Of a stretch of DNA of 64,000 nt, positions 1-15,262 are shown one piece after another. The DNA is taken from assembly GCA_026397915.1 (NCBI GenBank), contig JAPLTX010000060.1:110210-174209 (forward strand), given 5' to 3'. Position numbers and translations under genes: made by a program. Every line of letters starts with the position of its first letter. The stretch's first letter is position 1. The notes under the pieces were generated by a model, which was not told the origin of the DNA, did not search any database, and worked only from the letters and a program-made list of their open reading frames with translations. Source of the DNA: Verrucomicrobiota bacterium (lineage in GTDB: Bacteria > Verrucomicrobiota > Verrucomicrobiia > CAIQCK01).

Positions 1-99
1 GAGTTGATCGGCTCCTGCGCGTTGATGGCGGTCGTCTATCTGGCGGTCGGCGCCTGGTTTTTCCGCAAACGCGAAGCGAAGCTGGCCGATATCCTGTAA
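1..99 (+). CDS. wzm: ABC transporter permease (O-antigen/polysaccharide export), 3' end only
   Basis: Frame +1 reads ELIGSCALMAVVYLAVGAWFFRKREAKLADIL*, a typical Wzm C-terminus (TM helix + FFRKxE..ADI), directly upstream of Wzt. Confidence 0.8.
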   Translation, partial: ELIGSCALMAVVYLAVGAWFFRKREAKLADIL

Positions 100-193
100 C
101 CACAGAATGCACGAAATGCACGAAAACCGGATTATGAATTGCGGATCATGGATGACCTTCCAGGCTTCCGTGTATTCCGTGCATTCCGTAGTT
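98..193. repeat. Imperfect palindromic intergenic element with 28-bp arms
   Basis: AACCACAGAATGCACGAAATGCACGAAA (98-125) matches the reverse complement of 166-193 at 23/28 positions. The arms have an internal 9-nt periodicity. Confidence 0.75.
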
Positions 194-201
194 CCTCCGT
201 C

Positions 202-1530
202 ATGAGTGACATAGCCATTCAAATTTTCGGCCTCGGCAAGCGTTACCGTTACGGCGGCGCCGCGCCGCTGAGCACCAACTTGCGTGCAGACATCAGCGAT
301 TGGGCCAAGGGCCTGTTCCGACGGAACAGCAAAGGCCATCCAACGCTTCAGCAGGTTCACGAACATCATCTCTCTGCGTCTCCGGAGTATTTCTGGGCGC
401 TCAAGGACGTCAGCTTCGAGGTGAATCAGGGCGAAGTCATCGGCATCATCGGCCGCAACGGCGCTGGCAAGAGCACCCTGCTGAAAATCCTCTCCCGCAT
501 CACTCCGCCCACCACCGGCCACATCGAATACCACGGCCGCATTGCCAGCTTGCTGGAGGTTGGCACCGGCTTCCACCGGGAGTTGACCGGCCGCGAAAAC
601 ATCTTCCTCAACGGCTCAATCCTTGGCATGAAACGCGCCGAAATCGCCCGTAAATTCGACGAAATCGTCGCATTCGCCGAGGTCGAGAAATTCATAGACA
701 CACCTGTGAAGTTTTACTCCAGCGGCATGTATGTGCGGCTGGCCTTCGCCGTCGCGGCGCATCTCGAACCGGAAATTCTGCTGGTGGATGAGGTGCTGGC
801 TGTCGGCGATATCGAGTTTCAAAGGAAATGTATCGGAAAAATGGAAGATGTTGCCCGTGAAGGCAGAACCGTGCTGGTGGTCAGTCACAGCATGAGCACC
901 GTCAAAGCGCTGTGCTCGAAGGCCGTGCTGCTTGAATCCGGTCGCATCAAGGCCAGCGGCGCGGTGGACGGGGTCGTCGCGGGATATGTGAGCGCGAGCA
1001 AGGTGGGCGCGGCGAAAACAGTGCTGACCGATGCGGATCACGACTCCGGCACCACCAACCAAGTCCGCGTTCGGAGCCTTCAGCTTCTGAACGCACCGGG
1101 GAACAGTTTCACTGTTCACTGGCAGCAGCCGATCTCCATGGTCGCGGACGTGGAAGTATTTGAGCCGCTCAGGGACTTGGTTTTCGGAGCGAGCATCAAG
1201 ACGATTTATGACACTGATATTCTGACGATTCACAGCGACATAGTTGACAGTAAGCCGCAGTCATCGTGGACGCTGGAACCCGGCCGATATGAGATTGCCT
1301 TCAAGCTGCGGAATGATCTGAGGCCTGGTTCTTACAGACTCCGATTGGGAGCCGCGTGCCTACAGCATCTTGGCCGTAGCAATGTGCTGAACGTCAACGC
1401 TGGCACACTACAGGTTCTGGATTTCTCGGAGCAGGGGCTTACACCAAGGCCTTCATGCACTGGACTGGTGAATGGATATTCCACGTGGAGTTACGAACGT
1501 TGTCCTCATCAGCCCAAGCAGACATCATGA
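202..1530 (+). CDS. wzt: Polysaccharide ABC transporter ATP-binding protein with C-terminal carbohydrate-binding (Wzt_C-like) domain
   Basis: WALKDVSF, Walker A GRNGAGKST, YSSGM signature, Walker B ILLVDE, plus a ~170-aa beta-rich C-terminal extension. Start moved to MSDIAIQ at 202. Confidence 0.95.
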   Translation: MSDIAIQIFGLGKRYRYGGAAPLSTNLRADISDWAKGLFRRNSKGHPTLQQVHEHHLSASPEYFWALKDVSFEVNQGEVIGIIGRNGAGKSTLLKILSRITPPTTGHIEYHGRIASLLEVGTGFHRELTGRENIFLNGSILGMKRAEIARKFDEIVAFAEVEKFIDTPVKFYSSGMYVRLAFAVAAHLEPEILLVDEVLAVGDIEFQRKCIGKMEDVAREGRTVLVVSHSMSTVKALCSKAVLLESGRIKASGAVDGVVAGYVSASKVGAAKTVLTDADHDSGTTNQVRVRSLQLLNAPGNSFTVHWQQPISMVADVEVFEPLRDLVFGASIKTIYDTDILTIHSDIVDSKPQSSWTLEPGRYEIAFKLRNDLRPGSYRLRLGAACLQHLGRSNVLNVNAGTLQVLDFSEQGLTPRPSCTGLVNGYSTWSYERCPHQPKQTS

Positions 1531-2456
1531 AGAAAAGCTTGAAAGAAACCATCAAGGGCGGATTGCAAACCCACTTGCCGCGACTGTGGAAGGCTTACTG
1601 TTTTCTGAGGACGCCCAGTGTGATCAAAGAGGCTCCGTGGATGCGTGAGAAAGCAGAAAAGGCGCGCTTTCGTCAATGTATCAAAGAGCGAAGACCTTAT
1701 TTCGGTCCCATTATGGCGGCTCGGCAGGGCGTGTCGGTCCGTCACGCTTATATGCGGGCTTTGGTGGAGGAGGAATGTGCCCGAATCGGTGACGGTTCGT
1801 ATCGAATCTTGGAAATCGGATCGTGGGCTGGAGGTTCCGCCATTACATGGGCTAGTGCAGTCCAATCTTTCAACAAAGGGCGGGGTTGTGTGGTATGCGT
1901 TGATCCTTGGGAGAGCTATGTGGACAACCTCGTTCGCGATGCCGAAGTCTACCAAGCGATGGATGCCGCGTTGAAGAGCGGCGATATATTCAACTTGTTC
2001 CTGCATAATATTCGTTCTTCCGGATTTTACTCCCTCATCAAAGTAATGAGAGGTCAAAGCGGCGACATCCTTCCACTGCTCAAGCCTGAGACATTTGATC
2101 TCGTGTTTGTGGATGGGGCGCACGATTACGCGAGCGTCGTGGCAGACTTGAAAAACGCATCGCCGTTGGTTCGTGACGGCGGAATCCTCTGTGGCGACGA
2201 CCTCGAACTCCAGACATCGGAAGTGGACATGGAGAACGCGAGAAATCACTCAGCTTCGGACTATGTTTGCGATCCAAGGACGAGTGAATGGTTTCATCCT
2301 GGCGTCACGCTGGCGATCGGGGAACGTTTCGGGTTGGTTTCCGTGTGGCAAGGCTTCTGGGCAATGAGAAAGACGGGAACCTGCTGGCAAAAGGTGAAAA
2401 GCTCAAAGCCGGATGCGAAATATCTAAACATTCCAAGCCACCTGAAGTCGGCGTGA
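1527..2456 (+). CDS. Class I SAM-dependent methyltransferase (Methyltransf_24-like)
   Basis: ILEIGSWAGGS motif I, CVDPW, FDLVFVDGAHDY. ATGA overlap with the wzt stop. Confidence 0.9.
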   Translation: MKKSLKETIKGGLQTHLPRLWKAYCFLRTPSVIKEAPWMREKAEKARFRQCIKERRPYFGPIMAARQGVSVRHAYMRALVEEECARIGDGSYRILEIGSWAGGSAITWASAVQSFNKGRGCVVCVDPWESYVDNLVRDAEVYQAMDAALKSGDIFNLFLHNIRSSGFYSLIKVMRGQSGDILPLLKPETFDLVFVDGAHDYASVVADLKNASPLVRDGGILCGDDLELQTSEVDMENARNHSASDYVCDPRTSEWFHPGVTLAIGERFGLVSVWQGFWAMRKTGTCWQKVKSSKPDAKYLNIPSHLKSA

Positions 2457-2665
2457 CTTAACAAGTCATTGCTGTCCTACCATCATCAATGACGAGAGCT
2501 ATGATGGATCAGCAAAGGCGGGGTGGGTGTTCCCGAGTATTATAGGAACAAGATGATTGGTTCGATGAGATTACGAGAGTTGATGCTCCAGTTGGGGTTT
2601 CTGAAGGCACACGAAGCTCATCGGTGGTCGTAACGCCTGCGAGCCAGAAACACCAGGCGATCTTC

Positions 2666-3769
2666 ATGCAAGCCCACCCGAAGATGCGCGTATTGTTATT
2701 GGTTAAAGAGTTTACGAATTGGCGTGTCGAAGCACGCCACTGGTCTTATACAGCCCAGCTCGGTTTCGAGGAAGGATTGCGGGCGCATGGGATTCAGGTT
2801 GTTTCGATCACATCGCCTTGGTTTTCTTGCGCGAGGAAGATTTGTGCGGGCAGGAAGTTTGATCAGGTCTGGGTTGATGCCGTGCATGCTCCGTTGGACG
2901 ACGACATGTTGGAATGGGTTGCCGGTCTCGCGCCCGTGCGGGTCGCCTTTTTGGCTGAGTCGCTGGAATACACTCCCGAAGAGCGCAAGATACAGCCATT
3001 GTTTGCGCAACGGAAACAGTTGGTCGAACAGCGCATGAGGTATTTTACGCACGCCGGGGCGTCTGATGAGCGCGACGCCGAGAATATCAACGCAAAGCGG
3101 TTGGCTTCCGCCATATTATGGCCGCCAGCGGTGCCGTTGCGGTTTATCCGAGAACGAAAGGCCGCTTCTTTGCATCAAGCCGCAGTATTCAGCGGCGCAC
3201 TTTACGGAAATCGCGCCGCTTGGCTGGATATCCCCAAACTGAAAGGCTTGTTGGTAAGACAGCCGTCGTCGGAGCAGGGAACGCCATATCCGTTTCTCTT
3301 CGACGCGTTGCAATGGGTGGTGCCGCGTTATTTGCGCCGCGTGGGTGTTGCTGAAACAGCCGCATTCGGTGCCTACCTGTGGGCGTTACGCCACATTCGC
3401 CGCCAATGTTTTGTGCGCTGGCAGCGTGGCATGCAAACAGGCGTCGCGGTCGTTAACCTGCCTTCCATGGTAAAGGCCTATGCAGGTCGGGTGGTGGAAG
3501 CGATGGCCGTCGAGTGTCCAGTGATCTCCTGGGAAATCCCTGATCGTCCGAGAACCAAGAGGCTCTTTGAAGATGGCAATGAAATCCTGCTTTACCAGGA
3601 GCCAGACGAGTTGGCGGATCATATTCAGCACATTCTAAAGGAACCCGGTTTCGGACGGCGCATCGGAGCCAACGCTCTTCGTAAGGTCCGGCAATTCCAT
3701 ACAATGGAAAAGCGTGTGGGGCAGATGTTGAACTGGGTTGAGACTGGCGCGGAGCCTGTTTACGCCTGA
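2666..3769 (+). CDS. Glycosyltransferase family protein (CgeB / Glyco_trans_1_2-like)
   Basis: C-terminal VVNLPS..RVVEAMAVECPVIS...LFEDGNEILLY...IGANALRKVRQFHTMEKR. Start codon uncertain (2666 or 2684). Confidence 0.8.
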   Translation: MQAHPKMRVLLLVKEFTNWRVEARHWSYTAQLGFEEGLRAHGIQVVSITSPWFSCARKICAGRKFDQVWVDAVHAPLDDDMLEWVAGLAPVRVAFLAESLEYTPEERKIQPLFAQRKQLVEQRMRYFTHAGASDERDAENINAKRLASAILWPPAVPLRFIRERKAASLHQAAVFSGALYGNRAAWLDIPKLKGLLVRQPSSEQGTPYPFLFDALQWVVPRYLRRVGVAETAAFGAYLWALRHIRRQCFVRWQRGMQTGVAVVNLPSMVKAYAGRVVEAMAVECPVISWEIPDRPRTKRLFEDGNEILLYQEPDELADHIQHILKEPGFGRRIGANALRKVRQFHTMEKRVGQMLNWVETGAEPVYA

Positions 3770-3803
3770 GCATTGCCGGAACACCAGCGACGAGAGCAGT
3801 CCA

Positions 3804-4565
3804 ATGAGTATTTCACCTGATCAAACAGAGTCATTCTACACCGCGTTTTTCACGAAAGACCCGTATTGGTCCACGCCATTTCCAAATCCCGACGAGGCGC
3901 GACGGTGGGCGAAGGTCGGCGAATATCTGAGCGACATTGCCCATCCGCGCGAGATGGCGGGCCAGCCGCGATTGCGGATACTCGAGGTTGGTTGTGGCCG
4001 CGGCTGGCTGACGCATCAAGCCAGTGCTTACGGCCAATGCGACGGGATTGATCCGGTGGCCGGCTCCATAGAGCAGGCGCGAAAACTTTATCCGGCGCTG
4101 AGTTTTCGCGCCGGGATGGTGGGTGACTTGTTGCGCAATCCATCCTTCAAGCCCTATGACGTCGTCATCAACTCCGAGGTGATCGAGCATGTGCAAGATA
4201 AGGATCCATTCGTGGAAGATTTGCGAAAGTGCTTGGTGATGGACGGTCATCTGGTCTTGACGACGCCGCTCGCAGAGCAGTTTGAGCATTGGAAGACGCG
4301 ATTGGGCGCAACGGGACAGCCGGTCGAGGAGTGGTTGACAGAGCGGGAAGTGCGGGTGCTGTTTCAGCGACACGGCTTCACGGTGCTGGCGCACGACCGG
4401 GTTTACTTGGAGATGCAGAAGATGTCGTTCTTAAACCGGCTTTGTGTGAGCCAGAAGCTGATGCGGTTGTTGGAAACGTTCCGGATGAGCTGTGTCATGA
4501 GTGCGATGAAGTATTCGGCAAGCATTTATCAGGTCTGGTTGTTCCGGCGAACGGGGGCGGAGTGA
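3804..4565 (+). CDS. Class I SAM-dependent methyltransferase (UbiG-like)
   Basis: RILEVGCGRGW, GIDP, YDVVINSEVIEHV, GHLVLTTP. Confidence 0.9.
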   Translation: MSISPDQTESFYTAFFTKDPYWSTPFPNPDEARRWAKVGEYLSDIAHPREMAGQPRLRILEVGCGRGWLTHQASAYGQCDGIDPVAGSIEQARKLYPALSFRAGMVGDLLRNPSFKPYDVVINSEVIEHVQDKDPFVEDLRKCLVMDGHLVLTTPLAEQFEHWKTRLGATGQPVEEWLTEREVRVLFQRHGFTVLAHDRVYLEMQKMSFLNRLCVSQKLMRLLETFRMSCVMSAMKYSASIYQVWLFRRTGAE

Positions 4566-4596
4566 GTGTGTTCACGATGAACAACTGGAGAAAGTC

Positions 4597-5436
4597 ATGA
4601 GCAAGTGCGACGTAAGAGTTTCTGTCATCGTTCCCTGTCACAACCAAGGGGAGTATTTGAATGAAGCCGTTGACTCGGTGTTGGCGCAGACTTATGAGGA
4701 CTTCGAAATCATCATCATCAACGACGGTTCCACGGACGAGCAGACCAACAAGATTCTCGCCGGGTTCAACCGGCCCAAGACGCGCGTCATTCACACCGCC
4801 AACCGCGGCCTCGCGACGGCGCGCAACACAGCCATCGGGGAAGCACGCGGCGACTATATCTTGCCGCTGGATGCGGATGACAAGATTGGCCCTCGATACA
4901 TGGAGCGCGCGGTAGAGGTGCTTGATCGCGACAAGCAGGTCGGCATCGTTTACTGCGAAGCGGAGACTTTTGGTGAAATATCTGTCAAGTGTGAGTTGCC
5001 GCCATTCTCATTCCCGGAGTTTCTCTTGACGAGTATGTTCTTTTGCTCGGCATTCTTCCGCATGGAGGACTATTGCAAGACGAAGGGCTACAATCCGAAC
5101 ATGATTTACGGCGGGGAGGACTACGACTTCTGGTTGTCCATCTTCGAACTCGGGCGGACGGTGCATCGCCTTCCCGAAACGATGTTCTACTATCGTCAGC
5201 ATTCAGACTCAATGGTCCATCGAATGACCCGCGAGCAGCGGATCGCTGCGATGGTGCAGCGTTTTGAGAACCATCGCGAGCTATACTTGGCGAACATGGA
5301 TTACGTTTTCTCTTGCATCGAAGATTTGCGCGAGGAGCTACGAGAGCGCCGGCGGGAGCTGTTGTTTATCAAGAGCCGGCGGCTGTTCAAGTTGTTGGAC
5401 CGATGGTGGCGTTTGAAGGAACGACTGAGAATCTGA
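4597..5436 (+). CDS. GT2 glycosyltransferase
   Basis: VSVIVPCHN, IIINDGSTD, NRGLATARN, LPLDADD, EDYDFW, with a short charged helical C-terminus. Confidence 0.95.
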   Translation: MSKCDVRVSVIVPCHNQGEYLNEAVDSVLAQTYEDFEIIIINDGSTDEQTNKILAGFNRPKTRVIHTANRGLATARNTAIGEARGDYILPLDADDKIGPRYMERAVEVLDRDKQVGIVYCEAETFGEISVKCELPPFSFPEFLLTSMFFCSAFFRMEDYCKTKGYNPNMIYGGEDYDFWLSIFELGRTVHRLPETMFYYRQHSDSMVHRMTREQRIAAMVQRFENHRELYLANMDYVFSCIEDLREELRERRRELLFIKSRRLFKLLDRWWRLKERLRI

Positions 5437-5543
5437 CAGGATTCGCGGCATCGTGGCGACAAACAGGCCCAACGATCCGTTGCGGTTGTGATGCCGATTT
5501 GGCGTTTGCCACTGTCGTCCAAGGAAGAGACTCCCTCCTCGTG

Positions 5544-5587
5544 TTGCCGTGGTATTGCTACCCGCCGCTGACGTGGAGCTTGCAGCG
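5544..5587 (+). pseudogene. Stranded duplicate of the 5' end of the downstream GT4 gene
   Basis: 44 bp matching 6502-6545 at 42/44. The frame reads SLLVLPWYCYPPLTWSLQR* versus LLILPWYCYPPLTGSLQRYY in the GT4. Confidence 0.85.
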
Positions 5588-5618
5588 ATGATGTTGCGCC
5601 ACAAACTGTCTGATCACA

Positions 5619-6374
5619 TCAGAACTCGCGATGGAATTCCCAGTGTCTGGTGTCGTCCGCCATTTTTTGGAAGGCGACGCAGCGGCTGCCGCGGACGATG
5701 CCCCAATCTTCATCCGGTTCCAACGATTCAGGCTTGAGGATCGAGCGCAGCGGGGCCATGCGGCGTGCCAGACTTCGCAGAAGCCGCCCCTTCCACGTAG
5801 ATTGCAGAATTGTGGCCGGTTCCAGACAACGATGAACGCGGTAGGCGCGATTGATGGCGATGAAGCGGCAGAGCCTCCGCACACTTGGCCAATTTGCGTC
5901 GTCCATGACGACGATCCCGCCAACGCGCAGCATCTGGTCAACGTAGAAGAAATCAACCAGCGCGTGGTCGAAGGTGTGGAAACCGTCAATGAAGGCAAAA
6001 TCAACCTTACAGCCTTCCCGGACGAGTTGGGGAAGGGTCGCTTGGGAAGGAGCGCTGTGGAACTGGATGAGGTCCTCATAACCGGCGGCCTTGAGGTTGT
6101 TCAAGCCGATGCTCTTATAAAAGTCGCCCGTCTGGCCGGGATCAATCACAATGTGGCGCGTTTGTGGTGTTCTTTCGAGGGCGTCGCAGATGAAAAGCGC
6201 CGACACGCCAAAGGCCAGGCCGACTTCGAGACTCGTTCGCGGTCGGAGTTCGGAAACCAGCCTGTGGAGGAAGTGGCCTTCTTCGGGCGTGATGTGGGTC
6301 TCCAGCTTGACCTTCTCGCCGGTGGGCGAAGTGGCATAGCCGGTTTCCAACATTTGCTTCAGGATGGCGTTCAT
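5619..6374 (-). CDS. Class I SAM-dependent methyltransferase (Methyltransf_24-like), antisense to the operon
   Basis: SLEVGLAFGVS, IVIDP, VDFAFIDGFHTFD, GGIVVMDD. Start set at MNAILKQ. Confidence 0.9.
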   Translation of the reverse strand: MNAILKQMLETGYATSPTGEKVKLETHITPEEGHFLHRLVSELRPRTSLEVGLAFGVSALFICDALERTPQTRHIVIDPGQTGDFYKSIGLNNLKAAGYEDLIQFHSAPSQATLPQLVREGCKVDFAFIDGFHTFDHALVDFFYVDQMLRVGGIVVMDDANWPSVRRLCRFIAINRAYRVHRCLEPATILQSTWKGRLLRSLARRMAPLRSILKPESLEPDEDWGIVRGSRCVAFQKMADDTRHWEFHREF

Positions 6375-6471
6375 AACGATGTCGAGCGGCCAATAGGCTA
6401 ACGAGAGCGGCCGGTGATTGCGAATAAGAAAACAAGAGAGTTGTGAGCGGAACAAAACGATAAAGAGAACG

Positions 6472-7756: not shown

Positions 7757-8806
7757 ATGAAAAAACTACTTGTCACAGGTTCCAACGGCCTCATCGGCTC
7801 GGAGATGGTTCGGCATTTCCATGAGCTGGGCTGGGAAGTTCATGGCGTGGACAACAACATGCGCGCCAGTTTCTTCGGCCCGCAGGGCGACACGCGATGG
7901 AACCAGCAGCGGTTGGTGGCGGCGTTTCTGCGGTTCACGCATCACGAACTCGACATGCGCCAACGCGATGCTGTGCGGGCGATGGTCGGGCAACTGAAGC
8001 CGGATGCGGTCATCCACACGGCGGCGCAGCCGAGTCATGACCTGGCGGCGTCGCGCGTGTTCGATGACTTCGACGTGAACGCCAACGGCACGCTTAACCT
8101 GCTGGAGGCGATGCGGCATGTCTGTCCCGAGGCGCCGCTGGTTCACCTCTCCACGAACAAGGTCTATGGTGACGCGCCGAACCGCATCAAGTTGAAGGAG
8201 CTGCCGATGCGTTGGGATTACGACGACCCGCGCTACGCTGATGGCATTACGGAGGATTTTACGATTGACCAGTCCAAGCACTCGCTTTTCGGCGCTTCGA
8301 AGGCGGCGGGCGACATCCTTGTGCAGGAATACGGTCGCTACTTCAACATGCCAACCTGCTGCTTGCGCGGTGGCTGTCTGACGGGACCATCGCACTCTGG
8401 CATCGAGTTGCACGGCTTCCTGAGCTATCTCGTGAAGGTCAATGTCACCGGCGGCACCTATCGCGTGTTCGGCTACAAGGGCAAACAGGTGCGCGACAAC
8501 ATCCATTCCCACGACGTGGCGTGTTTCGCGGAGCGGTTCATCGCCGCCCCGCGCTGCGCCGAGGTCTACAACATCGGCGGCGGCCGCGGCAACTCCTGCT
8601 CGATCCTCGAAGCGTTTGCGCGCGTCGAGAAACTCAGCGGCAAGCCGATGAAATGGGAATACGTGGACAAGGCGCGCGAAGGCGACCACATCTGCTACAT
8701 CAGCAACCTGGCGAAGATGCGGCAGCATTATCCCGGCTGGGACATCACCAAGAACCTCGACGCGATCTTTTCCGAGATCGTGGACTCCTGGCTGGAACGG
8801 GCGTGA
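7757..8806 (+). CDS. NAD-dependent epimerase/dehydratase, CDP-paratose 2-epimerase (RfbE/Tyv)-like
   Basis: [55 protein letters not shown]. Confidence 0.9.
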
Positions 8807-8846
8807 TGACGTTTCACGCGCCGTGGCCGCTGAAGAAAGTCTTGCT

Positions 8847-9971
8847 GTGACCAAACGTTTGCGCATCCAGATCGTCCTGCCGTTCCGTGGGATCACTGGC
8901 GGCAATCTCGTGTTGGTGGAACTGGCCAACCGGCTCGCGGCGCGCGGGCATGAAGTCTGGATGCTGTTCGAGCACGTGGACGTGCCGTGGTGGAAACCGC
9001 GAGGGTTTACGCGCGTCAAGCTGCGGGATGCGGGGTGGAAGTCGTGGATTGACTGGTTTGACCTGCGCGTGCCGGTGGTGCGCTGCCATCAATTGGAGGA
9101 CCGCTACGTGCCGGATGCGGATGTGATCCTGGCGAGCTACTGGCTGCACATCCCGAAGATCGCGGCACTCTCGGCGAACAAGGGGCGGAAACTCTACTAC
9201 GTGCAGGCGTATGAGACGGATTTCAACGAAGACTCGGAGACCAAGGTATCCGTGGACGCGACGTATCGGCTGCCGTTCCGGCACATTGTGGTGGCGTCGT
9301 GGATCGGCAGGTTGTTGTGGGAGAAGTTTGCCCAGCCATCAGTGAAGGTGAATCCGGCGATTGATTACACGAACCTGCCAGTGCCGGTCGGGCGCGAGTT
9401 TCGCAATCCGCCGCGCTGCCTCATGCAGCATCACACGCCAGCGGTGAAGGGCGTGGCCGACGGCATCAGGGCGTTCGAGTTGGCGGCGCGCGACGTGCCA
9501 GGCATGACGCTGTCGCTGTTCGGCCCGCACAGCGGGCAGTTCGAGACGCCCCACCGCACGCTGGGTCGGATTCTGCCAACGCAACTGGGCGGGTTGTATC
9601 GCGAACACGATATCCTGATCTGGCCGAGCCATTCGGAGGGCTTCGGCGTGCCGCCGGTGGAGGCGATGGCCTGCCAGTGCGCGGTGGCCACCACCGACAA
9701 CGGTGGCAGCGAGGAGTTCGCGTTCCACGAAGGGACGGCGCTCGTGTCGCCGTCGCACGACGTGGAGTCGCTCGCGGCAAACATCATCCGGCTTGCGAAA
9801 GACATGGAATTGCGTCGGCGGCTGGCGCGCACCGGTTGCGAATGGGTCCGGAAGCATATCACGTGGGAGCGCACATGCGACGCAGTTGAGCGGTGCTTCC
9901 ATGATGACACTTTGTGGAAAGGACCGAATTCGCCGGTGCTGCCGAAAGACGCAGTAATCCGTGGTCAGTAA
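8847..9971 (+). CDS. GT4 glycosyltransferase
   Basis: GGNLVLVELANRLAARGHEV, YYVQAYE, SHSEGFGVPPVEAMAC. Probable GTG start. Confidence 0.9.
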   Translation: MTKRLRIQIVLPFRGITGGNLVLVELANRLAARGHEVWMLFEHVDVPWWKPRGFTRVKLRDAGWKSWIDWFDLRVPVVRCHQLEDRYVPDADVILASYWLHIPKIAALSANKGRKLYYVQAYETDFNEDSETKVSVDATYRLPFRHIVVASWIGRLLWEKFAQPSVKVNPAIDYTNLPVPVGREFRNPPRCLMQHHTPAVKGVADGIRAFELAARDVPGMTLSLFGPHSGQFETPHRTLGRILPTQLGGLYREHDILIWPSHSEGFGVPPVEAMACQCAVATTDNGGSEEFAFHEGTALVSPSHDVESLAANIIRLAKDMELRRRLARTGCEWVRKHITWERTCDAVERCFHDDTLWKGPNSPVLPKDAVIRGQ

Positions 9972-9995
9972 TCAGTGACCGGTTGTCAGTCAGTT

Positions 9996-10994
9996 ATGAA
10001 CCCGATTGTCAGTGTGGTCATTCCGAACCTGAACGCCAGGAGCTGGCTGGAGCGCTGCATCCGCTCGTTGCAGGCGCAGACGTTGCAGCCGACCGAGATC
10101 ATTCTCGTGGACCAGAACTCCAACGACGGCTCGGCCGACTACGTGGCGGCGACTTTTCCCGACGTGCGCCTGTTCCGGCAGCCGGACGACCTCGGTTTCA
10201 CGGGCGCGTGCAACGAGGGGATGCGGGCGGCGCAGGGCGAGTTCATCGTGCTCTTCAACACCGATGCGCGCGCCGAGCCGGATTGGCTGGAGACGTTGGT
10301 GAAGGCGATGGGCAGCGACGAGACGATCGGCTCGGCGGCGTGCCTGACGCTCGACTACCATGACAGCAAGCTCATCTATTCGCTGGGCGATGGGTTTCTG
10401 CCGGGCGGCGACGCGTTCAACATCGGCCGTGGAATGGCTTGGCGGTCCGACCTTCCGATGCCGCGTTACGTTTTCGGCGGATCGGGTTGCACGGTGATTT
10501 ACCGGCGCTCGGCGCTGGACAGGGTGGGGTTGTTGGACGAGGACTTTTACACGTTCCACGAGGATGTGGATCTGGCTTGGCGCTTGCAGTTGGCGGGTTT
10601 CAAATGTCTTTACGTGCCCCAAGCCGTTGCCTATCACGTGGGCAACGCGACCGGCCGGAAATTCAAGGAACGCAACGCGTTTATCAGCGGTCGCAACCGC
10701 TGGCTGGTGTTGTTCAAAAACCTGCCCTTGGGCTTGTGGATACGCTTCGCGCCACAGATGGCGTTGCGGCAAGCGCAAGTAACTTGGTGGGCGATCAAAG
10801 GTGACGAGGAAAGCCGTGTGCGGTGCCGCGGCGCGTTGAGTTCGCTGGCGTTCCTGCGCCGCGAGTGGCGCAAGCGCCGCGCGGTGCAACGATTGCGGCG
10901 GGTCAGCGCGGGTGAACTGGCGGCGTTCTTTCGGATGCACGAGATGCTCCAGCGGCGGCTGAAGGACATCGCGGAAGAATCAGAAGGGAAATGA
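9996..10994 (+). CDS. GT2 glycosyltransferase (rhamnosyltransferase-like subfamily)
   Basis: VSVVIPNLN, LVDQNSNDGS, LGFTGACNEG, LFNTD, LLDEDFYTFHEDVDLAWR. Confidence 0.93.
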   Translation: MNPIVSVVIPNLNARSWLERCIRSLQAQTLQPTEIILVDQNSNDGSADYVAATFPDVRLFRQPDDLGFTGACNEGMRAAQGEFIVLFNTDARAEPDWLETLVKAMGSDETIGSAACLTLDYHDSKLIYSLGDGFLPGGDAFNIGRGMAWRSDLPMPRYVFGGSGCTVIYRRSALDRVGLLDEDFYTFHEDVDLAWRLQLAGFKCLYVPQAVAYHVGNATGRKFKERNAFISGRNRWLVLFKNLPLGLWIRFAPQMALRQAQVTWWAIKGDEESRVRCRGALSSLAFLRREWRKRRAVQRLRRVSAGELAAFFRMHEMLQRRLKDIAEESEGK

Positions 10995-10995
10995 C

Positions 10996-11865
10996 GTGAA
11001 CGCGCGCATTCTCAAAGCGGTCCGGCTCGCGGGCAAACTGGTCCTGTCGCTGAACCTCGGCAGCGTGCTGCGAGTGCTGCGATTCGGCCCCGGTGATTTT
11101 CGCAACCGGCTGCGGGAGATTTTCGAGTTGAGCAATCCGTTCGAGTGCCGCAGCGACATCACGACGATGGTGCGGACGTATTGCACGGGCAAGGGGATCG
11201 AGGTTGGTCCCGCAGACAATCCGTATTGCGACCCGGCGAACACGGTGTTCGTGGACAAGTTCGAGCGCGCGGGACAAGGGATGGCCGTCCAGAAGATCGA
11301 GAATGCATGGCAGTTGCCGTTTGCGGACAACCAGTTCGACTTCTTGATGTCGTCGCATTGTCTGGAGCACTGCCCGGACGCGATTCGCACGCTGCTGGAA
11401 TGGTGCCGCGTAGTGCGGCCGGGCGGGCGGTTGGTGGTGATCTTGCCGCACGCGTTCCGGATGTTTGATTGTGGCCGGACGCTGACGCCGTTGGCGCATC
11501 ACATCGAGGACTACGAGAAAGGCGTGGGTCTGGACGACCCGGCGCCTTGGGAAGAGTTTGAGCGTATTTCCATTCCGGCGCAGCATCACTACTGGCTGGA
11601 TTTTCCGGAAGCGCGTTTGCCGGACGGCCGGATCAACCGGAAGTGGGTCTATGAAAACGGCTGCATCCACTATCACGTCTGGCGGACGCAGGAGATGATT
11701 GAATTGCTTCGCCACGTTGGCTGCCGGGTCATCTTCAGTCAGGACAAGCTGGGCCAGCGGCCGGACAGCTTCGCGGTGGTGGTGGAAGTTGGAAAAAGCC
11801 AAGAACCGGTTGCGTTTCAGCGGAAATTCAAAGACAATCCGCCGCGCACTGACGCGAGCGAATGA
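10996..11865 (+). CDS. Class I SAM-dependent methyltransferase (Methyltransf_11-like)
   Basis: GIEVGP, FDFLMSSHCLEHCPD, RVVRPGGRLVVILP. GTG start one base after the upstream stop. Confidence 0.88.
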   Translation: MNARILKAVRLAGKLVLSLNLGSVLRVLRFGPGDFRNRLREIFELSNPFECRSDITTMVRTYCTGKGIEVGPADNPYCDPANTVFVDKFERAGQGMAVQKIENAWQLPFADNQFDFLMSSHCLEHCPDAIRTLLEWCRVVRPGGRLVVILPHAFRMFDCGRTLTPLAHHIEDYEKGVGLDDPAPWEEFERISIPAQHHYWLDFPEARLPDGRINRKWVYENGCIHYHVWRTQEMIELLRHVGCRVIFSQDKLGQRPDSFAVVVEVGKSQEPVAFQRKFKDNPPRTDASE

Positions 11866-11878
11866 AGAAACAAGGACG

Positions 11879-12994
11879 ATGAAAAAGCGCATTCTAGTCA
11901 CCGGCGGAGCCGGTTTCATCGGGTCGTTTCTGGTGGATGAACTGGTTCGGCGCGGACACGAGGTGACCGTGTTCGACAATTTCGAGCCGCAGGTCCACGG
12001 CCGGAAGCGGCCGAACTATCTCAATAAGAACGCCCGTTACATCAAGGGCGACGTGCGCAACATGGCGGCTTTCCAGAAGGTCGTGTTGCCGGCGGAGGTG
12101 ATTTTCCACGAAGCGGCGATGGTGGGCATCGGGCAGTCGCAGTATCAAGTCAGCCGCTACACCGACGTGAACGTGCTCGGCACGGCCAACCTGCTCGACA
12201 TCCTTGCCAACAAAAAGCACCGCTGCCAGAAGCTGGTGGTGGCGGCTTCGATGTCGAGCTATGGCGAGGGGCTTTACGAGTGCGGCCAGCACGGGAAGAT
12301 TCGGCCGCCGTTGCGCGGCGAGGACGACGTGGCCAGCGGCGTGTGGGAGCTGCGTTGTCCGCAGTGTGGCAAGCTTGCCGGGCCCGCGCCGACGCCGGAG
12401 ACGGCGGAGTTGATTTGCAGCTCGATTTACGCGCAGAACAAGAAGGACCAGGAGGAAATGGTGCTGATGTTCGGCCGGACCTACGGGCTGCCAACGGTGG
12501 CGCTGCGTTATTTCAACGTCTATGGGCCGCGCCAGTCGTTGTCGAATCCTTACACGGGTGTGTGCGCCATCTTCATGAGCCGCATCAAGAACGGCAACCG
12601 GCCGGTGGTCTATGAGGACGGCGGCCAGACGCGCGACTTTGTGAGCGTGCATGACATCGTGCAGGCGAACTTGCTGGCGATGGAGAAGGAGAGTGCCAAC
12701 GGCCACGTGTTCAACGTCGGCGCAGGCAGGCCGATCAGCGTGGCGGAGGTGGCGCGGGTGTTGGCGAAGCTCTTCGGCGTGGTGATTGAGCCGGAAATCA
12801 CGGGCAAGTTCCGCAAGGGCGACGTGCGGCATTGCTTCCCGGATGTTTCCAAGGCGGGCAAGCTGCTCGGCTACAAACCGGCCGTCAGTTTCGATAAAGG
12901 GATGCGTGAGTTGATCGAGTGGTCGCGCGAGGCCGAGGCGAAAGACAAGTTCGAGGAAGCGGCGCGCGAATTGAAAAAACGAGGACTGGCATGA
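11879..12994 (+). CDS. NAD-dependent epimerase, WbiB-like (dTDP-L-rhamnose 4-epimerase-like) subfamily
   Basis: ILVTGGAGFIGS, SSMSSYGEG followed by a YEC..HG...CPQC insert, YAQNK, LRYFNVYGPRQSLSNPYTG. Confidence 0.88.
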   Translation: MKKRILVTGGAGFIGSFLVDELVRRGHEVTVFDNFEPQVHGRKRPNYLNKNARYIKGDVRNMAAFQKVVLPAEVIFHEAAMVGIGQSQYQVSRYTDVNVLGTANLLDILANKKHRCQKLVVAASMSSYGEGLYECGQHGKIRPPLRGEDDVASGVWELRCPQCGKLAGPAPTPETAELICSSIYAQNKKDQEEMVLMFGRTYGLPTVALRYFNVYGPRQSLSNPYTGVCAIFMSRIKNGNRPVVYEDGGQTRDFVSVHDIVQANLLAMEKESANGHVFNVGAGRPISVAEVARVLAKLFGVVIEPEITGKFRKGDVRHCFPDVSKAGKLLGYKPAVSFDKGMRELIEWSREAEAKDKFEEAARELKKRGLA

Positions 12995-13290
12995 AGTATC
13001 TGATGTTTCCGCTGTATTTCTTCGGGGCGGTCGCCGTCATTGTGTTGGCGTTGCGTTTGTTCATGCCGTTCCGCGAAATCTGGGAGCGATGGAAGAAGGT
13101 CGCGCACCGGTTGGGCGTGTGGCAGACCAATCTGATCCTGACGCTGCTTTATTTCCTGATTATTCCGGTGTTCGCGTTGATTGCGGGCAAGAAACGGTTG
13201 CGGCTGAAACTGGATCCGGCGGCGGCCACTTACTGGGAAGACGTAAAGCCGCTGCCTCATTCGCTGGAAGAGGCCGGCAGGCCATTCTGA
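12991..13290 (+). CDS. SxtJ-like small membrane protein
   Basis: WKKVAHRLGVWQTNLILTLLYFLIIPV...RLKLD..ATYW pattern; two hydrophobic segments; adjacent to a carbamoyltransferase. Confidence 0.75.
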   Translation: MKYLMFPLYFFGAVAVIVLALRLFMPFREIWERWKKVAHRLGVWQTNLILTLLYFLIIPVFALIAGKKRLRLKLDPAAATYWEDVKPLPHSLEEAGRPF

Positions 13291-13297
13291 GCGTATC

Positions 13298-15076
13298 ATG
13301 AACATCCTCGGTCTTTCCTTCTTCTATCACGACGCAGCGGCGGCCTTGGTGCGCGACGGCGAGTTGGTGGCGGCGATCGAGCAGGAACGGTTCAGCCGGA
13401 AGAAACACGACTCGGAGTTCCCGGAGCTGGCCATCGAGTATTGCCTGAAGCAGGCGGGCATCACGCTGGAGCAGGTGGATCACATCGTGTTCTACGAGAA
13501 GCCGTTCGTGAAATTCGACCGCATCCTGCTCTGCGCGCTCGGCACGTGGCCGCACAGCTACAAGGGCTTCCTCAAGGCGATCCCGATCTGGATGAAAGAT
13601 AAGATCCGCATCCGCGCCTACATCCAGAAGAAGCTCGGCACGGACAAGGACATCCTGTTCTGCGGCCACCACATGAGCCACGCGGCAAGCGCGTTCTTGG
13701 TGTCGCCGTTCGAGAAGGCGGCGATCATCACCGCCGATGGCGTGGGCGAGTGGGACACAACCTGCATCGGCTACGGTGAGGGCAACCGGGTGGTCTTGGA
13801 GAAGAAGATCGAGTTTCCGCACTCGGTCGGGTTGTTCTACAGCGCCTTGACGGCGTATCTCGGTTTCAAAGTCAACGATGCCGAGTGGAAAGTGATGGGC
13901 TTGGCGCCCTACGGCGAGCCGAAGTATGTGGGCCAGTTCATGCAACTGGTGGACATCAAGGCCGACGGCAGCTTCCGGTTGAACATGGAATACTACGCCC
14001 ACCATTGGAGCGAGAACACGATGCTCAACCGATGGGAACGGTTGTTTGGCGAACCGCCACGCAGGCCGGAGACGGAACTGACGAAGTATCACTACGACAT
14101 CGCGCGCTCCGGCCAGGCGGTGGTCGAGAAGATCATGGTCAACATGGCCCGCGCCGTCCACGAGCGTTACAAGTTCGACGCGCTTTGCATCGGCGGCGGT
14201 GTCGGCCTCAACAGCGTGGCCAACTGGAAGATCCTCAAGCGGGGCAGTGGTTTCAAAAACATCTTCATTCAACCCGCAGCGGGCGATGACGGCGGGGCGC
14301 TCGGGGCGGCGTTCTGGGTCTGGAACTCTGTGCTGGGCCAACCGCGCAAGTTCACAATGCGCCACGCCTATTGGGGGCCGGAATACAACGACGCGGAAAT
14401 CCAAACCGCGCTGGACCGGGTTGGCGCGAAATACGAGAAGCTTTCCCGCGAACAGGTCGTTGAACGGACGGCGAAGGCGCTCGCCGAGGACAAGGTCATT
14501 GGTTGGTTCCAAGGGCGGCAGGAGTTCGGCCCGCGGGCGTTGGGGAGCCGCAGCATCCTCGCTAATCCCGGCAACCCGAAGATGAAGGACATCATCAACG
14601 CAAAGGTGAAATTCCGCGAATGGTTCCGGCCGTTTGCGCCAAGCGTGTTGAAGGAGAAGGCGCACCTCTATTTCGACATGCCGGAGGGGTTCGATTCGCC
14701 CTACATGTTGCTGGTGCCGCAGGTGCGGCCGGAATGGCGGTCGAAACTGTCGGCGATCACGCACGAGGACGGCACCGGCCGCGTGCAGACGGTGGAACCG
14801 GACATTGCGCCATTGTATTACGACCTGATCAAACGCTGGGGCGAGGTCAGCGGTGTGCCGGTGATCCTCAACACCAGCTTCAACGTTCGCGGCGAGCCGA
14901 TCGTGACGGCACCTGAGAACGCCTACAACACGTTTGTGAAAACCGGCATTGACGTGCTGGTGATGGGCAGCTACATGCTGCAGCACAAGGACCAGGCGGT
15001 GGATTTTGAGAAGGGCATGCGCGAGAGCGTGAACTTGGAATGGTCGCACGCCCCGACAGCGGTCCCGGCAGATTGA
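13298..15076 (+). CDS. O-carbamoyltransferase (NodU/CmcH/SxtI family)
   Basis: ILGLSFFYHDAAA, QERFSRKKHD, HHMSHAASAF, DGVGE, GGVGLNSVAN, QPAAGDDG, EFGPRALGSRS, FRPFAP, LNTSFN. Confidence 0.95.
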   Translation: MNILGLSFFYHDAAAALVRDGELVAAIEQERFSRKKHDSEFPELAIEYCLKQAGITLEQVDHIVFYEKPFVKFDRILLCALGTWPHSYKGFLKAIPIWMKDKIRIRAYIQKKLGTDKDILFCGHHMSHAASAFLVSPFEKAAIITADGVGEWDTTCIGYGEGNRVVLEKKIEFPHSVGLFYSALTAYLGFKVNDAEWKVMGLAPYGEPKYVGQFMQLVDIKADGSFRLNMEYYAHHWSENTMLNRWERLFGEPPRRPETELTKYHYDIARSGQAVVEKIMVNMARAVHERYKFDALCIGGGVGLNSVANWKILKRGSGFKNIFIQPAAGDDGGALGAAFWVWNSVLGQPRKFTMRHAYWGPEYNDAEIQTALDRVGAKYEKLSREQVVERTAKALAEDKVIGWFQGRQEFGPRALGSRSILANPGNPKMKDIINAKVKFREWFRPFAPSVLKEKAHLYFDMPEGFDSPYMLLVPQVRPEWRSKLSAITHEDGTGRVQTVEPDIAPLYYDLIKRWGEVSGVPVILNTSFNVRGEPIVTAPENAYNTFVKTGIDVLVMGSYMLQHKDQAVDFEKGMRESVNLEWSHAPTAVPAD

Positions 15077-15103
15077 GCGCATTGACGCAGGAGTGACAAC
15101 ATC

Positions 15104-15262
15104 ATGGCAAAACAATCTCTGTTTCGAGAGCTGATCCAATTTGCGATGCGGGAGAAGAAGTGGTGGTTGATCCCGCTGCTGGTAATCCTGGTGTTGATTG
15201 GCGGCCTGATTATCTTCGCCCAATCCTCGGCCATCGCGCCGTTCCTCTACCCGTTTTTTTGA
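15104..15262 (+). CDS. 52-aa membrane protein, DUF5989/SxtK-like (absent from the ORF track, <60 aa)
   Basis: Hand translation: MAKQSLFRELIQFAMREKKWWLIPLLVILVLIGGLIIFAQSSAIAPFLYPFF*. AGGAG upstream. Shows the KKWWL.P...APF.Y..F pattern. Confidence 0.82.
   Translation: MAKQSLFRELIQFAMREKKWWLIPLLVILVLIGGLIIFAQSSAIAPFLYPFF

What the first reader, a model, noticed from the sequence alone, without database searches (positions are those of the whole stretch)
1..15262. ABC-exported glycan with four methyltransferases, a carbamoyltransferase and a Wzt C-terminal domain: candidate new chain cap
Seen: Wzt has a C-terminal extension, and the locus encodes four stand-alone SAM methyltransferases plus an O-carbamoyltransferase. 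Established: in E. coli O8/O9a the Wzt C-terminal CBM recognises a non-reducing terminal cap added by WbdD (methyl or phospho-methyl). No obvious WbdD-like kinase or long coiled coil is visible here. Inference: the export signal may be an unusual methylated and/or carbamoylated terminal sugar.
Basis: partly seen in the sequence, partly recalled or inferred. Interest (0 to 1): 0.55.

Follow-up and report, generated by a model that had tools for sequence, protein, structure and literature searches.

The report
Cap-gated glycan exporter locus, swappable reader
An uncultured freshwater Verrucomicrobium carries an ordinary-type gene cluster for a surface sugar polymer whose export pump has a sugar-reading domain; the most likely export mark is a methylated end sugar, while the carbamoyl-adding gene belongs to a separate movable three-gene unit.

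Summary
Observation confirmed. Wzt (202-1530, 442 aa) carries a genuine carbohydrate-binding domain. There are four stand-alone methyltransferases, one of them on the minus strand, and a full two-domain O-carbamoyltransferase. No WbdD-like kinase or coiled-coil ruler lies in the locus or in the 20 kb upstream.

Interpretation partly supported. In relatives of the same genus a conserved frame (wzm, Wzt ATPase half, two epimerase-like genes, GT4c, GT2b) surrounds a lower-GC variable part. The reader domain is exchanged together with the gene directly after wzt. Here that gene is a TylF-type sugar O-methyltransferase whose start overlaps the wzt stop (ATGA). The only genus relative sharing it (73%) also has the most similar reader domain (40-43%, against 10-20% for most others). 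A methylated terminal sugar is therefore the best candidate export mark. This design is already known from E. coli O8, Aquifex aeolicus, Pseudomonas aeruginosa and P. syringae.

The carbamoyl part is weak. The enzyme belongs to an SxtJ-like/carbamoyltransferase/DUF5989 triad (12991-15262). In four genus relatives this triad sits at unrelated places, and two others lack an ortholog, including the genome with the closest reader domain.

The scan has noted both themes on other DNA (337 Wzt-cap notes, 138 triad notes). Verdict: new member of a known kind, modest interest.

The parts
1..99 (+). 3' end of wzm (ABC-2 permease). The gene starts 722 bp upstream of the window (L001:19188 to window 99).
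   Evidence: ABC2_membrane E 5e-19. 50-93% identical in genus relatives.
202..990 (+). wzt, nucleotide-binding half (residues 1-263). Part of the conserved frame.
   Evidence: ABC_tran. Aligns with 8DKU. 64-81% identical among relatives. DNA similarity to relatives ends near 875-990.
994..1530 (+). wzt, C-terminal carbohydrate-binding domain (residues 265-442). First element of the variable part.
   Evidence: PF14524 above cut-off. Model pLDDT 91.4 with top PDB hits 5HNO, 2R5O and 6O14. Only 10-43% identical among genus relatives.
1527..2456 (+). MTA: TylF/Methyltransf_24-type sugar O-methyltransferase, 309 aa. Best candidate cap-forming enzyme.
   Evidence: Methyltransf_24 76 bits; TylF 22.9 bits, just under its cut-off of 23. 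ATG 1527 overlaps the wzt stop as ATGA. 73% ortholog only in G006, which has the closest CBD. The 309-aa gene call is on record.
2624..3769 (+). GT4a: single-module GT-B glycosyltransferase (PF13524 family).
   Evidence: Model pLDDT 88.6 is a plain two-Rossmann GT-B with no coiled coil. Foldseek gives PglA, methylmannose-polysaccharide ManT and PimB'. Absent from genus relatives.
3738..4565 (+). MTB: class I SAM methyltransferase (Methyltransf_23).
   Evidence: No WbdD among PDB hits. No ortholog in relatives.
4597..5436 (+). GT2a: family 2 glycosyltransferase.
   Evidence: Glycos_transf_2 115 bits. 58-61% orthologs in G004 and G007.
5535..6545 (-). MTC cassette. A minus-strand O-methyltransferase (ORF 5619-6500; start probably near 6380, inferred from the 252-253-aa orthologs in G003 and G010) bracketed by 53-nt direct repeats at 5535-5587 and 6493-6545. 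The repeats duplicate the 5' end of GT4b.
   Evidence: Methyltransf_24 69 bits and Methyltransf_3 52 bits. Repeats 91% identical. 55% orthologs at other positions in G003 and G010.
6418..7707 (+). GT4b: GT4 glycosyltransferase.
   Evidence: 62-66% orthologs in G003 and G010.
7757..8806 (+). SDR1: nucleotide-sugar epimerase, closest to CDP-tyvelose 2-epimerase. Conserved frame.
   Evidence: 89-93% identical in relatives.
8823..10994 (+). GT4c (8823-9971) and GT2b (9975-10994). Conserved frame glycosyltransferases.
   Evidence: 59-88% orthologs in all relatives examined.
10996..11865 (+). MTD: Methyltransf_11-type methyltransferase. An insertion unique to this genome between GT2b and SDR2.
   Evidence: In the relatives examined where the two genes adjoin (G001, G003, G007, G009, G010), GT2b and SDR2 are 14-38 bp apart with no gene between them.
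11891..12994 (+). SDR2: WbgU/WbpP-like UDP-hexose/HexNAc 4-epimerase. Last gene of the conserved frame.
   Evidence: 82-92% identical in relatives.
12991..15262 (+). Separate triad: 2-TM SxtJ-like protein (12991-13290), O-carbamoyltransferase (13298-15076) and DUF5989 microprotein (15104-15262, ending FLYPFF).
   Evidence: The block conserved at the DNA level runs from 12966-13093 (depending on the relative) to 15258-15265, and sits at unrelated sites in G001, G003, G004 and G007. It follows SDR2 only here and in G009.
15488..19080 (-). Convergent pair conserved downstream of the frame: a 627-aa multi-TM protein and a Wzy_C (WaaL/O-OTase-type) protein. Candidate acceptors of the exported glycan.
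   Evidence: Wzy_C 47 bits. Orthologs directly follow SDR2 in G001, G003 and G007, and lie about 1 kb beyond the SDR2 remnant in G006.

Best explanation
This is an ABC-transporter-dependent surface-glycan locus, O-antigen-like, of the 'cap first, then export' type.

Proposed pathway:
1. A polyprenol-linked chain is built on the cytoplasmic face by the conserved GT4c/GT2b pair plus the strain-specific glycosyltransferases GT4a, GT2a and GT4b.
2. Sugars come from two epimerase-type SDR enzymes.
3. The chain is O-methylated at several positions.
4. The non-reducing end is marked, most likely by MTA, the TylF-type O-methyltransferase translated in tandem with Wzt. MTA may act on a terminal sugar added by GT4a.
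5. The C-terminal jelly-roll domain of Wzt reads that mark and admits the chain to the Wzm/Wzt channel.
6. The convergent Wzy_C protein then attaches the chain to its acceptor.

There is no coiled-coil ruler, so termination is probably stochastic or kinetic.

The carbamoyltransferase belongs to an independent SxtJ-like/CmT/DUF5989 unit that has landed at the operon's end in this genome. It may carbamoylate this or another envelope polymer, but it is unlikely to write the signal that Wzt reads.

Shown: domain identities, CBD fold, gene order and overlaps, and the swap pattern among relatives. Inferred: which methyltransferase caps, the chemistry of the cap, the acceptor, and the target of the triad.
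For: - The CBD is real.
- wzm lies directly upstream, and a Wzy_C gene lies downstream.
- MTA overlaps the wzt stop by ATGA.
- The low-GC segment (CBD to the minus-strand methyltransferase MTC, 52.6-58% GC, against 60-65% for the frame genes) coincides with the variable part.
- Within the genus, Wzt NBDs are 64-81% identical while CBDs are 10-43% identical. CBD similarity follows the neighbouring gene:
  - G000/G006: CBD 40-43%, and they share MTA at 73%.
  - G003/G007: CBD 40%, and both have a PF13524 protein right after wzt.
  - G004/G007: wzm (91% DNA identity), the NBD (86% DNA, 81% protein), GT2 (90% protein), FkbM (92% protein) and GT2a (73% protein) are shared, but a clean 2.3-kb replacement covers the CBD plus the next gene and the first ~45 codons of the following GT2.
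  Sources.
- From established knowledge, not tested here: TylF-family enzymes methylate sugars that are already attached to an acceptor.
- Precedents for methyl caps read by Wzt CBDs with stand-alone methyltransferases: PMC9445017, PMC3560663, PMC7820976.
Against: - The sample of CBD/neighbour pairs is tiny, and the genomes are related, so the pairs are not independent.
- G004 has a CBD 31-35% identical to this one but no MTA ortholog. It has an unassigned 494-aa gene after wzt and an FkbM methyltransferase further on.
- In G006, a B12-radical-SAM gene lies between wzt and the MTA ortholog.
- In 401 genomes of the class (G000 included), MTA-like genes are rare. The one more distant hit whose contig extends far enough to judge (G130) has no Wzt match within 14 kb.
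- Nothing shows which residue is methylated, or that any methyl group is terminal.
- The contig-length match for P0004/P0246 is a proxy, not a seen adjacency.
Confidence: 0.5

Rival explanations
1. The cap is a distinct terminal sugar added by a glycosyltransferase of the variable part (GT4a, PF13524 family), by analogy with Kdo capping in Klebsiella O12 and O4. All four methyltransferases would then only decorate residues, producing a heavily O-methylated polymer.
For: - In G003 and G007 the gene swapped together with the CBD is a PF13524-domain protein, not a methyltransferase.
- GT4a belongs to the same Pfam family and lies in the same low-GC segment.
- A GT4a homolog (P0125, 77%) and a Wzt homolog with this CBD type (P0009) share contig length and source (45,054 bp). 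No MTA homolog from a contig of that length appears among the top 120.
- Every locus variant carries some methyltransferase, or a formyltransferase (G001) or B12-radical-SAM enzyme (L106), whatever its CBD type.
Against: - GT4a has no BLAST similarity to the G003 or G007 proteins.
- GT4a is absent from G006, whose CBD is the closest.
- MTA, not GT4a, is the gene coupled to wzt.
Confidence: 0.27
2. One reading: a carbamoyl group, alone or together with methyl, on the terminal sugar is the signal read by the Wzt CBD.
For: - The triad is co-oriented with the operon, and its first gene overlaps the SDR2 stop (ATGA).
- The same junction exists in G009.
- Two of 80 distant Wzt loci have a carbamoyltransferase within 2-4 kb.
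Against: - The triad is an autonomous unit with sharp, gene-precise borders. It lies next to housekeeping genes in G001, G003, G004 and G007, all of which keep the Wzm/Wzt frame.
- G006, which has the most similar CBD and shares MTA, has no ortholog (best match 34%).
- The DUF5989 microprotein ends in FLYPFF. This fits the FXYXXF acyl-shuttle motif, which in DltX carries the acyl group on the outer side of the membrane (PMC12148441). If the analogy holds, carbamoylation happens after export, out of reach of the cytoplasmic CBD.
Confidence: 0.07
3. The CBD does not gate export on a terminal mark. Instead it binds the repeat unit itself, or serves mainly as a dimerisation or regulatory domain, and chain length is set only by the balance between polymerisation and export.
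For: - No coiled-coil ruler or dedicated multidomain terminator is present.
- The Wzt_C score is only just above its cut-off.
Against: - In every CBD-bearing Wzt studied so far, the domain binds the terminal structure and is needed for export (PMC9445017, PMC11231755).
- The rapid, cassette-like turnover of the CBD together with one neighbouring gene is what a reader/writer pair predicts.
Confidence: 0.1

Closest known systems
Pseudomonas syringae CPA 'TET' operon (wzm-wzt-O-methyltransferase-GT; PMC7820976) and P. aeruginosa CPA with PA5457/PA5459 (PMC3560663)
   Same: - Wzt has a C-terminal reader domain.
- A stand-alone methyltransferase without kinase or ruler sits beside wzt.
- wzm and the 5' side are conserved, while everything from wzt onward is variable and exchanged by recombination.
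   Different: - The methyltransferase here is TylF/Methyltransf_24-type and overlaps the wzt stop.
- There are four methyltransferases.
- There is no dual-GT4 WbdA-like polymerase in this locus. One exists in the genome's second system on contig C62.
- The host is a Verrucomicrobium, and the glycan is chemically unknown.
Aquifex aeolicus WzmWzt with a 3-O-methyl-mannose/rhamnose cap (PDB 8DKU, 8DKY, 6O14; PMC9445017)
   Same: - Best sequence match in the PDB, extending through NBD and CBD.
- Same CBD fold.
- The cap is a simple O-methyl group on the terminal sugar.
   Different: - CBD identity is only about 20%.
- The alignment stops before the A. aeolicus methyl-pocket residue Trp362, so the pocket could not be compared.
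- The sugar genes here are epimerase-type, and no rhamnose or mannose pathway lies in the locus.
E. coli O8/O9a and Klebsiella O3/O5/O7/O12/O4 terminator systems (WbdD, WbbB, ORF6-O7, ORF7-O4; PMC3482155, PMC11231755)
   Same: A non-reducing terminal modification licenses export through a CBM on Wzt.
   Different: [quoted passage not shown] No kinase, no coiled coil and no PDB-level similarity to WbdD was found here.
sxtI-sxtJ-sxtK block of cyanobacterial saxitoxin clusters (PMC2679770)
   Same: A carbamoyltransferase is flanked by a small 2-TM protein and a ~52-aa DUF5989 microprotein.
   Different: - Different gene order.
- No toxin genes.
- No SGNH (SxtL-like) gene lies next to it here.
- It is found in a glycan or housekeeping context and moves between sites within one genus.

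Membership tests
Cap-dependent (CBD-gated) Wzm/Wzt glycan export system | ABC-2 permease Wzm encoded next to the ATPase Wzt | tested here: met
   ABC2_membrane, E 5e-19, ends at window 99. wzt starts at 202.
Cap-dependent (CBD-gated) Wzm/Wzt glycan export system | Wzt carries a C-terminal jelly-roll carbohydrate-binding domain (Pfam Wzt_C) | tested here: met
   33.9 and 36.9 bits against a cut-off of 30.4. Aligns with 8DKU. Model pLDDT 91.4, with top folds 5HNO, 2R5O and 6O14.
Cap-dependent (CBD-gated) Wzm/Wzt glycan export system | A chain-terminating enzyme encoded in the locus that writes the mark | tested here: inconclusive
   Candidates exist: MTA coupled to wzt, plus three more methyltransferases and GT4a. 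Co-variation with the CBD favours MTA, but it rests on very few related genomes.
Cap-dependent (CBD-gated) Wzm/Wzt glycan export system | Export depends on CBD binding to the terminal mark | not testable with these tools
   Needs binding and export assays.
WbdD-type terminator / coiled-coil molecular ruler | Extended coiled coil separating the membrane anchor from the catalytic domain(s) | tested here: not met
   All locus proteins are 430 aa or shorter (Wzt, at 442 aa, is fully accounted for by its NBD and CBD) and filled by enzyme domains. The only protein with a large unassigned region, GT4a, models as a plain GT-B. A crude heptad scan finds no long Pro/Gly-free helix.
WbdD-type terminator / coiled-coil molecular ruler | Kinase domain paired with the methyltransferase (O9a/O3/O7 type) | tested here: not met
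   No kinase family was hit in the locus or in the 20 kb upstream. WbdD is absent from the PDB hits of all four methyltransferases.
TylF-family sugar O-methyltransferases (for MTA) | Methyltransf_24/TylF class I SAM fold | tested here: inconclusive
   Methyltransf_24 scores 76 bits, well above its cut-off. TylF scores 22.9 bits against a cut-off of 23. Homologs in the protein collection carry PF05711. Substrate was not tested.
NodU/CmcH/TobZ O-carbamoyltransferases | Carbam_trans_N plus Carbam_trans_C, full length | tested here: met
   272 and 234 bits. Residues 3-562 align with TobZ, E 2.5e-93.
SxtI/J/K-type carbamoylation cassette | DUF5989 microprotein and a small TM protein flanking the carbamoyltransferase | tested here: met
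   PF19451 at 70.3 bits. The 99-aa hydrophobic protein with two apparent TM segments has no Pfam match, but it is conserved with the enzyme in 7 relatives.
SxtI/J/K-type carbamoylation cassette | Membrane-anchored SGNH partner (SxtL-like), as proposed in earlier notes of this scan | tested here: not met
   The gene after the triad is the convergent 627-aa TM protein, and no SGNH family hit was seen in the neighbours scanned. The rest of the genome was not searched.

The most novel reading that the evidence does not exclude
The Wzt reader domain of this clade recognises a terminal sugar that is multiply modified: O-methylated by MTA and/or MTB, and in this strain additionally carbamoylated by the triad. 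That would be a chain-end chemistry not yet described for any ABC-exported glycan. It would also give the widespread SxtJ/CmT/DUF5989 cassette its first defined substrate.
Probability: 0.08. Interest if true: 0.6.

Novelty: new member of a known kind. Interest (0 to 1): 0.3.

Why it matters
Surface glycans of Verrucomicrobia are almost unstudied. This locus shows that the 'cap, read, export' logic worked out in enterobacteria also operates there, in its simplest form: a stand-alone methyltransferase and no ruler.

The comparison within the genus gives a clean natural experiment. One 2.3-kb replacement exchanges the reader domain and the gene next to it, leaving the rest untouched apart from the first ~45 codons of the following GT2. 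That offers a practical rule for finding the cap-writing enzyme in uncharacterised loci.

The work also separates the carbamoyltransferase triad from the export question, which prevents a wrong assignment.

Tried and rejected
Adjacency of Wzt and MTA homologs on the 63,091-bp contig, and of Wzt and GT4a homologs on the 45,054-bp contig, rests only on matching contig length and source.
- A metagenome scan with a three-sequence CBD alignment returned only 4 loci. One was G006 again, and one new locus (L106) has no MTA ortholog.
- A class-wide search for MTA (401 genomes, G000 included) found only G006 and three distant hits. G130 has no Wzt match within 14 kb; the other two contigs are short. 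A statistical co-occurrence test was therefore not possible.
- None of the 80 Wzt loci from other phyla holds an MTA, MTB, MTD or GT4a relative at E 1e-10.
- The promoter and terminator scan found no more sites than shuffled sequence.
- The survey by Mann, Kimber and Whitfield (Glycobiology 2019) is not held.
- A literature search for the Rhizobium etli tri-O-methyl-fucose cap found nothing usable. That precedent is recalled from memory and is not relied on.
- The WbdD-like reading was rejected because no kinase, no coiled coil and no sequence similarity were found.
- The A. aeolicus methyl pocket (Leu300, Thr346, Ala348, Trp362) could not be compared. The sequence alignment ends before Trp362, and identity is about 20%.

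Full report
**Where the window lies.** The window is G000:C35:110210-174209 in a 6.17-Mb, 62-contig assembly. The nearest named relatives are Verrucomicrobiia MAGs.

**Gene map.** The assignments come from Pfam, NCBIfam and PDB sequence searches.
- wzm (ABC-2 permease) starts 722 bp before the window and ends at 99.
- wzt runs 202-1530. The ORF opens at 139, but the ATG at 202 gives the N-terminus MSDIAIQI shared by homologs.
- MTA 1527-2456.
- GT4a 2624-3769.
- MTB 3738-4565.
- GT2a 4597-5436.
- MTC 5619-6500, on the minus strand.
- GT4b 6418-7707.
- SDR1 7757-8806.
- GT4c 8823-9971.
- GT2b 9975-10994.
- MTD 10996-11865.
- SDR2 11891-12994.
- A 99-aa two-TM protein 12991-13290.
- The carbamoyltransferase 13298-15076.
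- A 52-aa DUF5989 protein 15104-15262.
- Converging on the minus strand: a 627-aa multi-TM protein (15488-17371) and a Wzy_C protein (17188-19080).

**Checking the observation.**
- Wzt_C scores above Pfam's gathering cut-off in two separate searches: 33.9 bits and 36.9 bits, against 30.4.
- Wzt aligns with full-length A. aeolicus Wzt (8DKU) across both domains.
- An AlphaFold model of residues 265-442 built on 35 sequences has pLDDT 91.4.
- Its top PDB matches are the three solved Wzt carbohydrate-binding domains: 5HNO, 2R5O and 6O14/8DKY.
- All four methyltransferases are significant.
- The carbamoyltransferase is a complete TobZ/NodU-type enzyme.

**Is there a canonical terminator?** None was found.
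- The 20 kb upstream hold, in order: an ABC exporter, a GT2, a Wzz/BY-kinase, a Wzy_C protein, lutABC, a UbiA prenyltransferase, a MarR-like regulator and wzm. There is no kinase-methyltransferase and no coiled coil.
- In the locus, every protein other than Wzt is 430 aa or shorter and filled by an enzyme domain.
- GT4a is the only protein with a long unassigned N-terminal part. Its homologs have the same length and cover 95% of it.
- GT4a models as an ordinary GT-B (pLDDT 88.6). It resembles PglA, the methylmannose-polysaccharide mannosyltransferase and PimB'.
- A crude heptad scan finds no long helix.
- WbdD does not appear among the PDB hits of any of the four methyltransferases.

Kelly et al. 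describe the coiled-coil protein as a characteristic marker of the Klebsiella/E. coli strategy (PMC11231755). That marker is absent here.

**Comparison within the genus.** This is the most informative result.

A DNA search of 40 relatives, followed by protein mapping on fetched loci, shows a conserved frame in the same-genus genomes G001, G003, G004, G006 and G007:

lutABC - ubiA - marR - wzm - wzt(NBD) - [variable] - SDR1 - [variable] - GT4c - GT2b - SDR2 - (minus strand) TM protein - Wzy_C - fkbO

Frame genes are 59-93% identical. Distribution of the other genes among these relatives:

| Gene | Shared with |
|---|---|
| MTA | G006 only (73%) |
| MTC | G003 and G010 (55%), at other positions |
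| GT2a | G004 and G007 (about 60%) |
| GT4a, MTB, MTD | none |

MTD is an insertion between GT2b and SDR2. In G001, G003, G007, G009 and G010 these two genes lie 14-38 bp apart with nothing between them. MTC is bracketed by a 53-nt direct repeat (5535-5587 and 6493-6545, 91% identical) that duplicates the start of GT4b.

The segment from the CBD to MTC has 52.6-58% GC, against 60-65% for the frame genes.

**Reader and writer move together.** Wzt NBDs are 64-81% identical among seven genomes, but CBDs are only 10-43% identical. The CBDs fall into types: {G000, G006, G004}, {G003, G007}, G001 alone and G010 alone. CBD type follows the neighbouring gene.
- G000 and G006 have CBDs 40-43% identical and share MTA.
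- G003 and G007 have CBDs 40% identical. In both, wzt is followed by a PF13524-domain protein.
- G004 and G007 share wzm (91% DNA identity), the Wzt NBD (86% DNA, 81% protein), GT2 (90% protein), FkbM methyltransferase (92% protein) and GT2a (73% protein). Between them lies a 2.3-kb stretch with no similarity (L094:2668-4938). It covers the CBD, the gene after wzt and the first ~45 codons of the following GT2.

This is what a reader/writer pair predicts. In G000 the gene in that position is MTA. Its ATG at 1527 overlaps the wzt stop codon (ATGA), and the 309-aa gene call is on record.

In the large protein collection, the two closest MTA homologs are P0245 (73%) and P0246 (69%). They come from contigs of 25,622 and 63,091 bp. 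These are the same lengths and sources as the contigs of the two closest long-contig Wzt homologs, P0006 and P0004.

**Limits of that inference.**
- The genomes are few and related.
- G004 has a CBD of the same type but no MTA. It has an unassigned 494-aa gene after wzt and an FkbM methyltransferase further on.
- In G006 a B12-radical-SAM gene lies between wzt and the MTA ortholog.
- MTA-like genes are rare in 401 genomes of the class (G000 included). The one more distant copy whose contig extends far enough to judge (G130) has no Wzt match within 14 kb.
- Every locus variant has some methyltransferase, or a formyltransferase (G001) or B12-radical-SAM enzyme (L106), whatever its CBD type. Methylation as such is therefore a general decoration in these glycans.
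- With four methyltransferases here, most must act on internal residues.

A cap made by GT4a remains a serious rival.

**The carbamoyltransferase.**
- DNA similarity to relatives starts at 12966-13093 (the latest start is a contig end). This is at or just inside the first gene, whose start is 12991. It ends at 15258-15265, the stop of the DUF5989 gene.
- The intact unit is 87-95% identical at the protein level in G001, G003, G004, G005, G007, G008 and G009.
- In G001 it lies between an amylase-like gene and a TPR gene. In G003 it lies beside glutamate dehydrogenase and NrpR. In G004 and G007 it lies beside NAD synthase.
- In G001, G003 and G007, SDR2 is followed directly by the convergent TM gene. 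In G006 only a 97-bp remnant of SDR2 was detected, about 1 kb before that gene.
- Only G000 and G009 have the unit after SDR2.
- G006, the genome with the closest CBD and the shared MTA, has no ortholog (best match 34%). G002 has none either.

The unit is therefore not a stable member of the Wzm/Wzt locus, and its presence does not follow the CBD type.

The DUF5989 protein ends in FLYPFF. This fits the FXYXXF 'acyl shuttle' motif, whose tyrosine carries D-alanine on the outer face of the membrane in DltX (PMC12148441). Earlier notes of this scan (for example e1-2406905) proposed, without proof, that the cassette carbamoylates polymers outside the cytoplasm. I checked only that the motif is present. 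No SGNH partner lies next to the unit here. If the analogy holds, the carbamoyl group would be added after export, where the cytoplasmic CBD cannot read it.

In this genome the unit is co-oriented with the operon and coupled to SDR2 by an ATGA overlap. Carbamoylation of this glycan somewhere along its length therefore remains possible.

**Comparison with what is known.**
- Caps recognised by Wzt CBDs include methyl, methyl-phosphate and Kdo (PMC9445017, PMC11231755).
- A. aeolicus uses 3-O-methyl-mannose or 3-O-methyl-rhamnose (PMC9445017).
- P. aeruginosa CPA needs at least one of two stand-alone methyltransferases, which lack WbdD's interaction domains (PMC3560663).
- P. syringae has a wzm-wzt-methyltransferase-GT operon. 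Everything from wzt onward varies by recombination, while wzm and the upstream genes stay conserved (PMC7820976).

The present locus has the same logic and the same pattern of variation. It is a new member of this kind in a little-studied phylum, not a new kind.

The same genome also holds a second, more classical system on contig C62. It comprises a Wzt with a strong Wzt_C match (124.6 bits), a 397-aa methyltransferase, a 788-aa dual-GT4 protein, a second methyltransferase and a PMT_2 protein.

**Verdict.**
- Methylated terminal sugar as the export mark, with MTA the best candidate: confidence about 0.5.
- Carbamoyl as the mark: about 0.07.
- Interest: 0.3.

The scan has met both themes many times on other DNA.

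Noticed in passing
window 12966-15262; L088, L089, L090, L099: The SxtJ-like/carbamoyltransferase/DUF5989 unit occupies at least four different genomic sites within one genus, with gene-precise borders. No transposase or terminal repeats were seen. How it moves is unexplained.
   Followed up: partly
window 15104-15262: The 52-aa DUF5989 protein has a basic N-terminus and one TM segment, and ends in FLYPFF. This fits the FXYXXF acyl-shuttle motif of DltX and of MBOAT C-termini.
   Followed up: partly
G000:C62:113598-123629 (L109:9598-19629): A second Wzm/Wzt system in the same genome. Its Wzt has a strong Wzt_C domain (124.6 bits). It also has a 397-aa methyltransferase with a 190-aa N-terminal extension, a 788-aa dual-GT4 (WbdA-like) protein, a second methyltransferase and a PMT_2 membrane protein.
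   Followed up: partly
L094:2668-4938 versus L095:11908-13983: In relatives G004 and G007, a clean 2.3-kb replacement exchanges the Wzt CBD, the next gene (a 494-aa unassigned protein versus a 430-aa PF13524 protein) and the first ~45 codons of the following GT2. The flanks are 85-91% identical.
   Followed up: yes
window 5535-6545; L091:1754-2512: The antisense methyltransferase is bracketed by 53-nt direct repeats. Its 55% ortholog in G003 sits between lutB and lutC, outside the glycan operon, so it behaves as a single-gene cassette.
   Followed up: partly
L092:5006-6826; L106:8608-9984: B12-binding radical-SAM enzymes, possibly C-methyltransferases, lie downstream of Wzt proteins with this CBD type in two other loci.
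   Followed up: no
L001:17416-18939 and window 19019-20317: A UbiA prenyltransferase plus a MarR-like regulator upstream, and an FkbO/Hyg5-type chorismatase downstream, flank the glycan locus in relatives of the genus: the upstream pair was seen in G003 and G006, the chorismatase in G003. Whether they are linked (a hydroxybenzoate prenylation pathway?) is open.
   Followed up: no
window 20215-22743: An 842-aa GH5 cellulase-like protein lies directly after the chorismatase gene. It is conserved in G003 (81%).
   Followed up: no
I did not check this.
   Followed up: no
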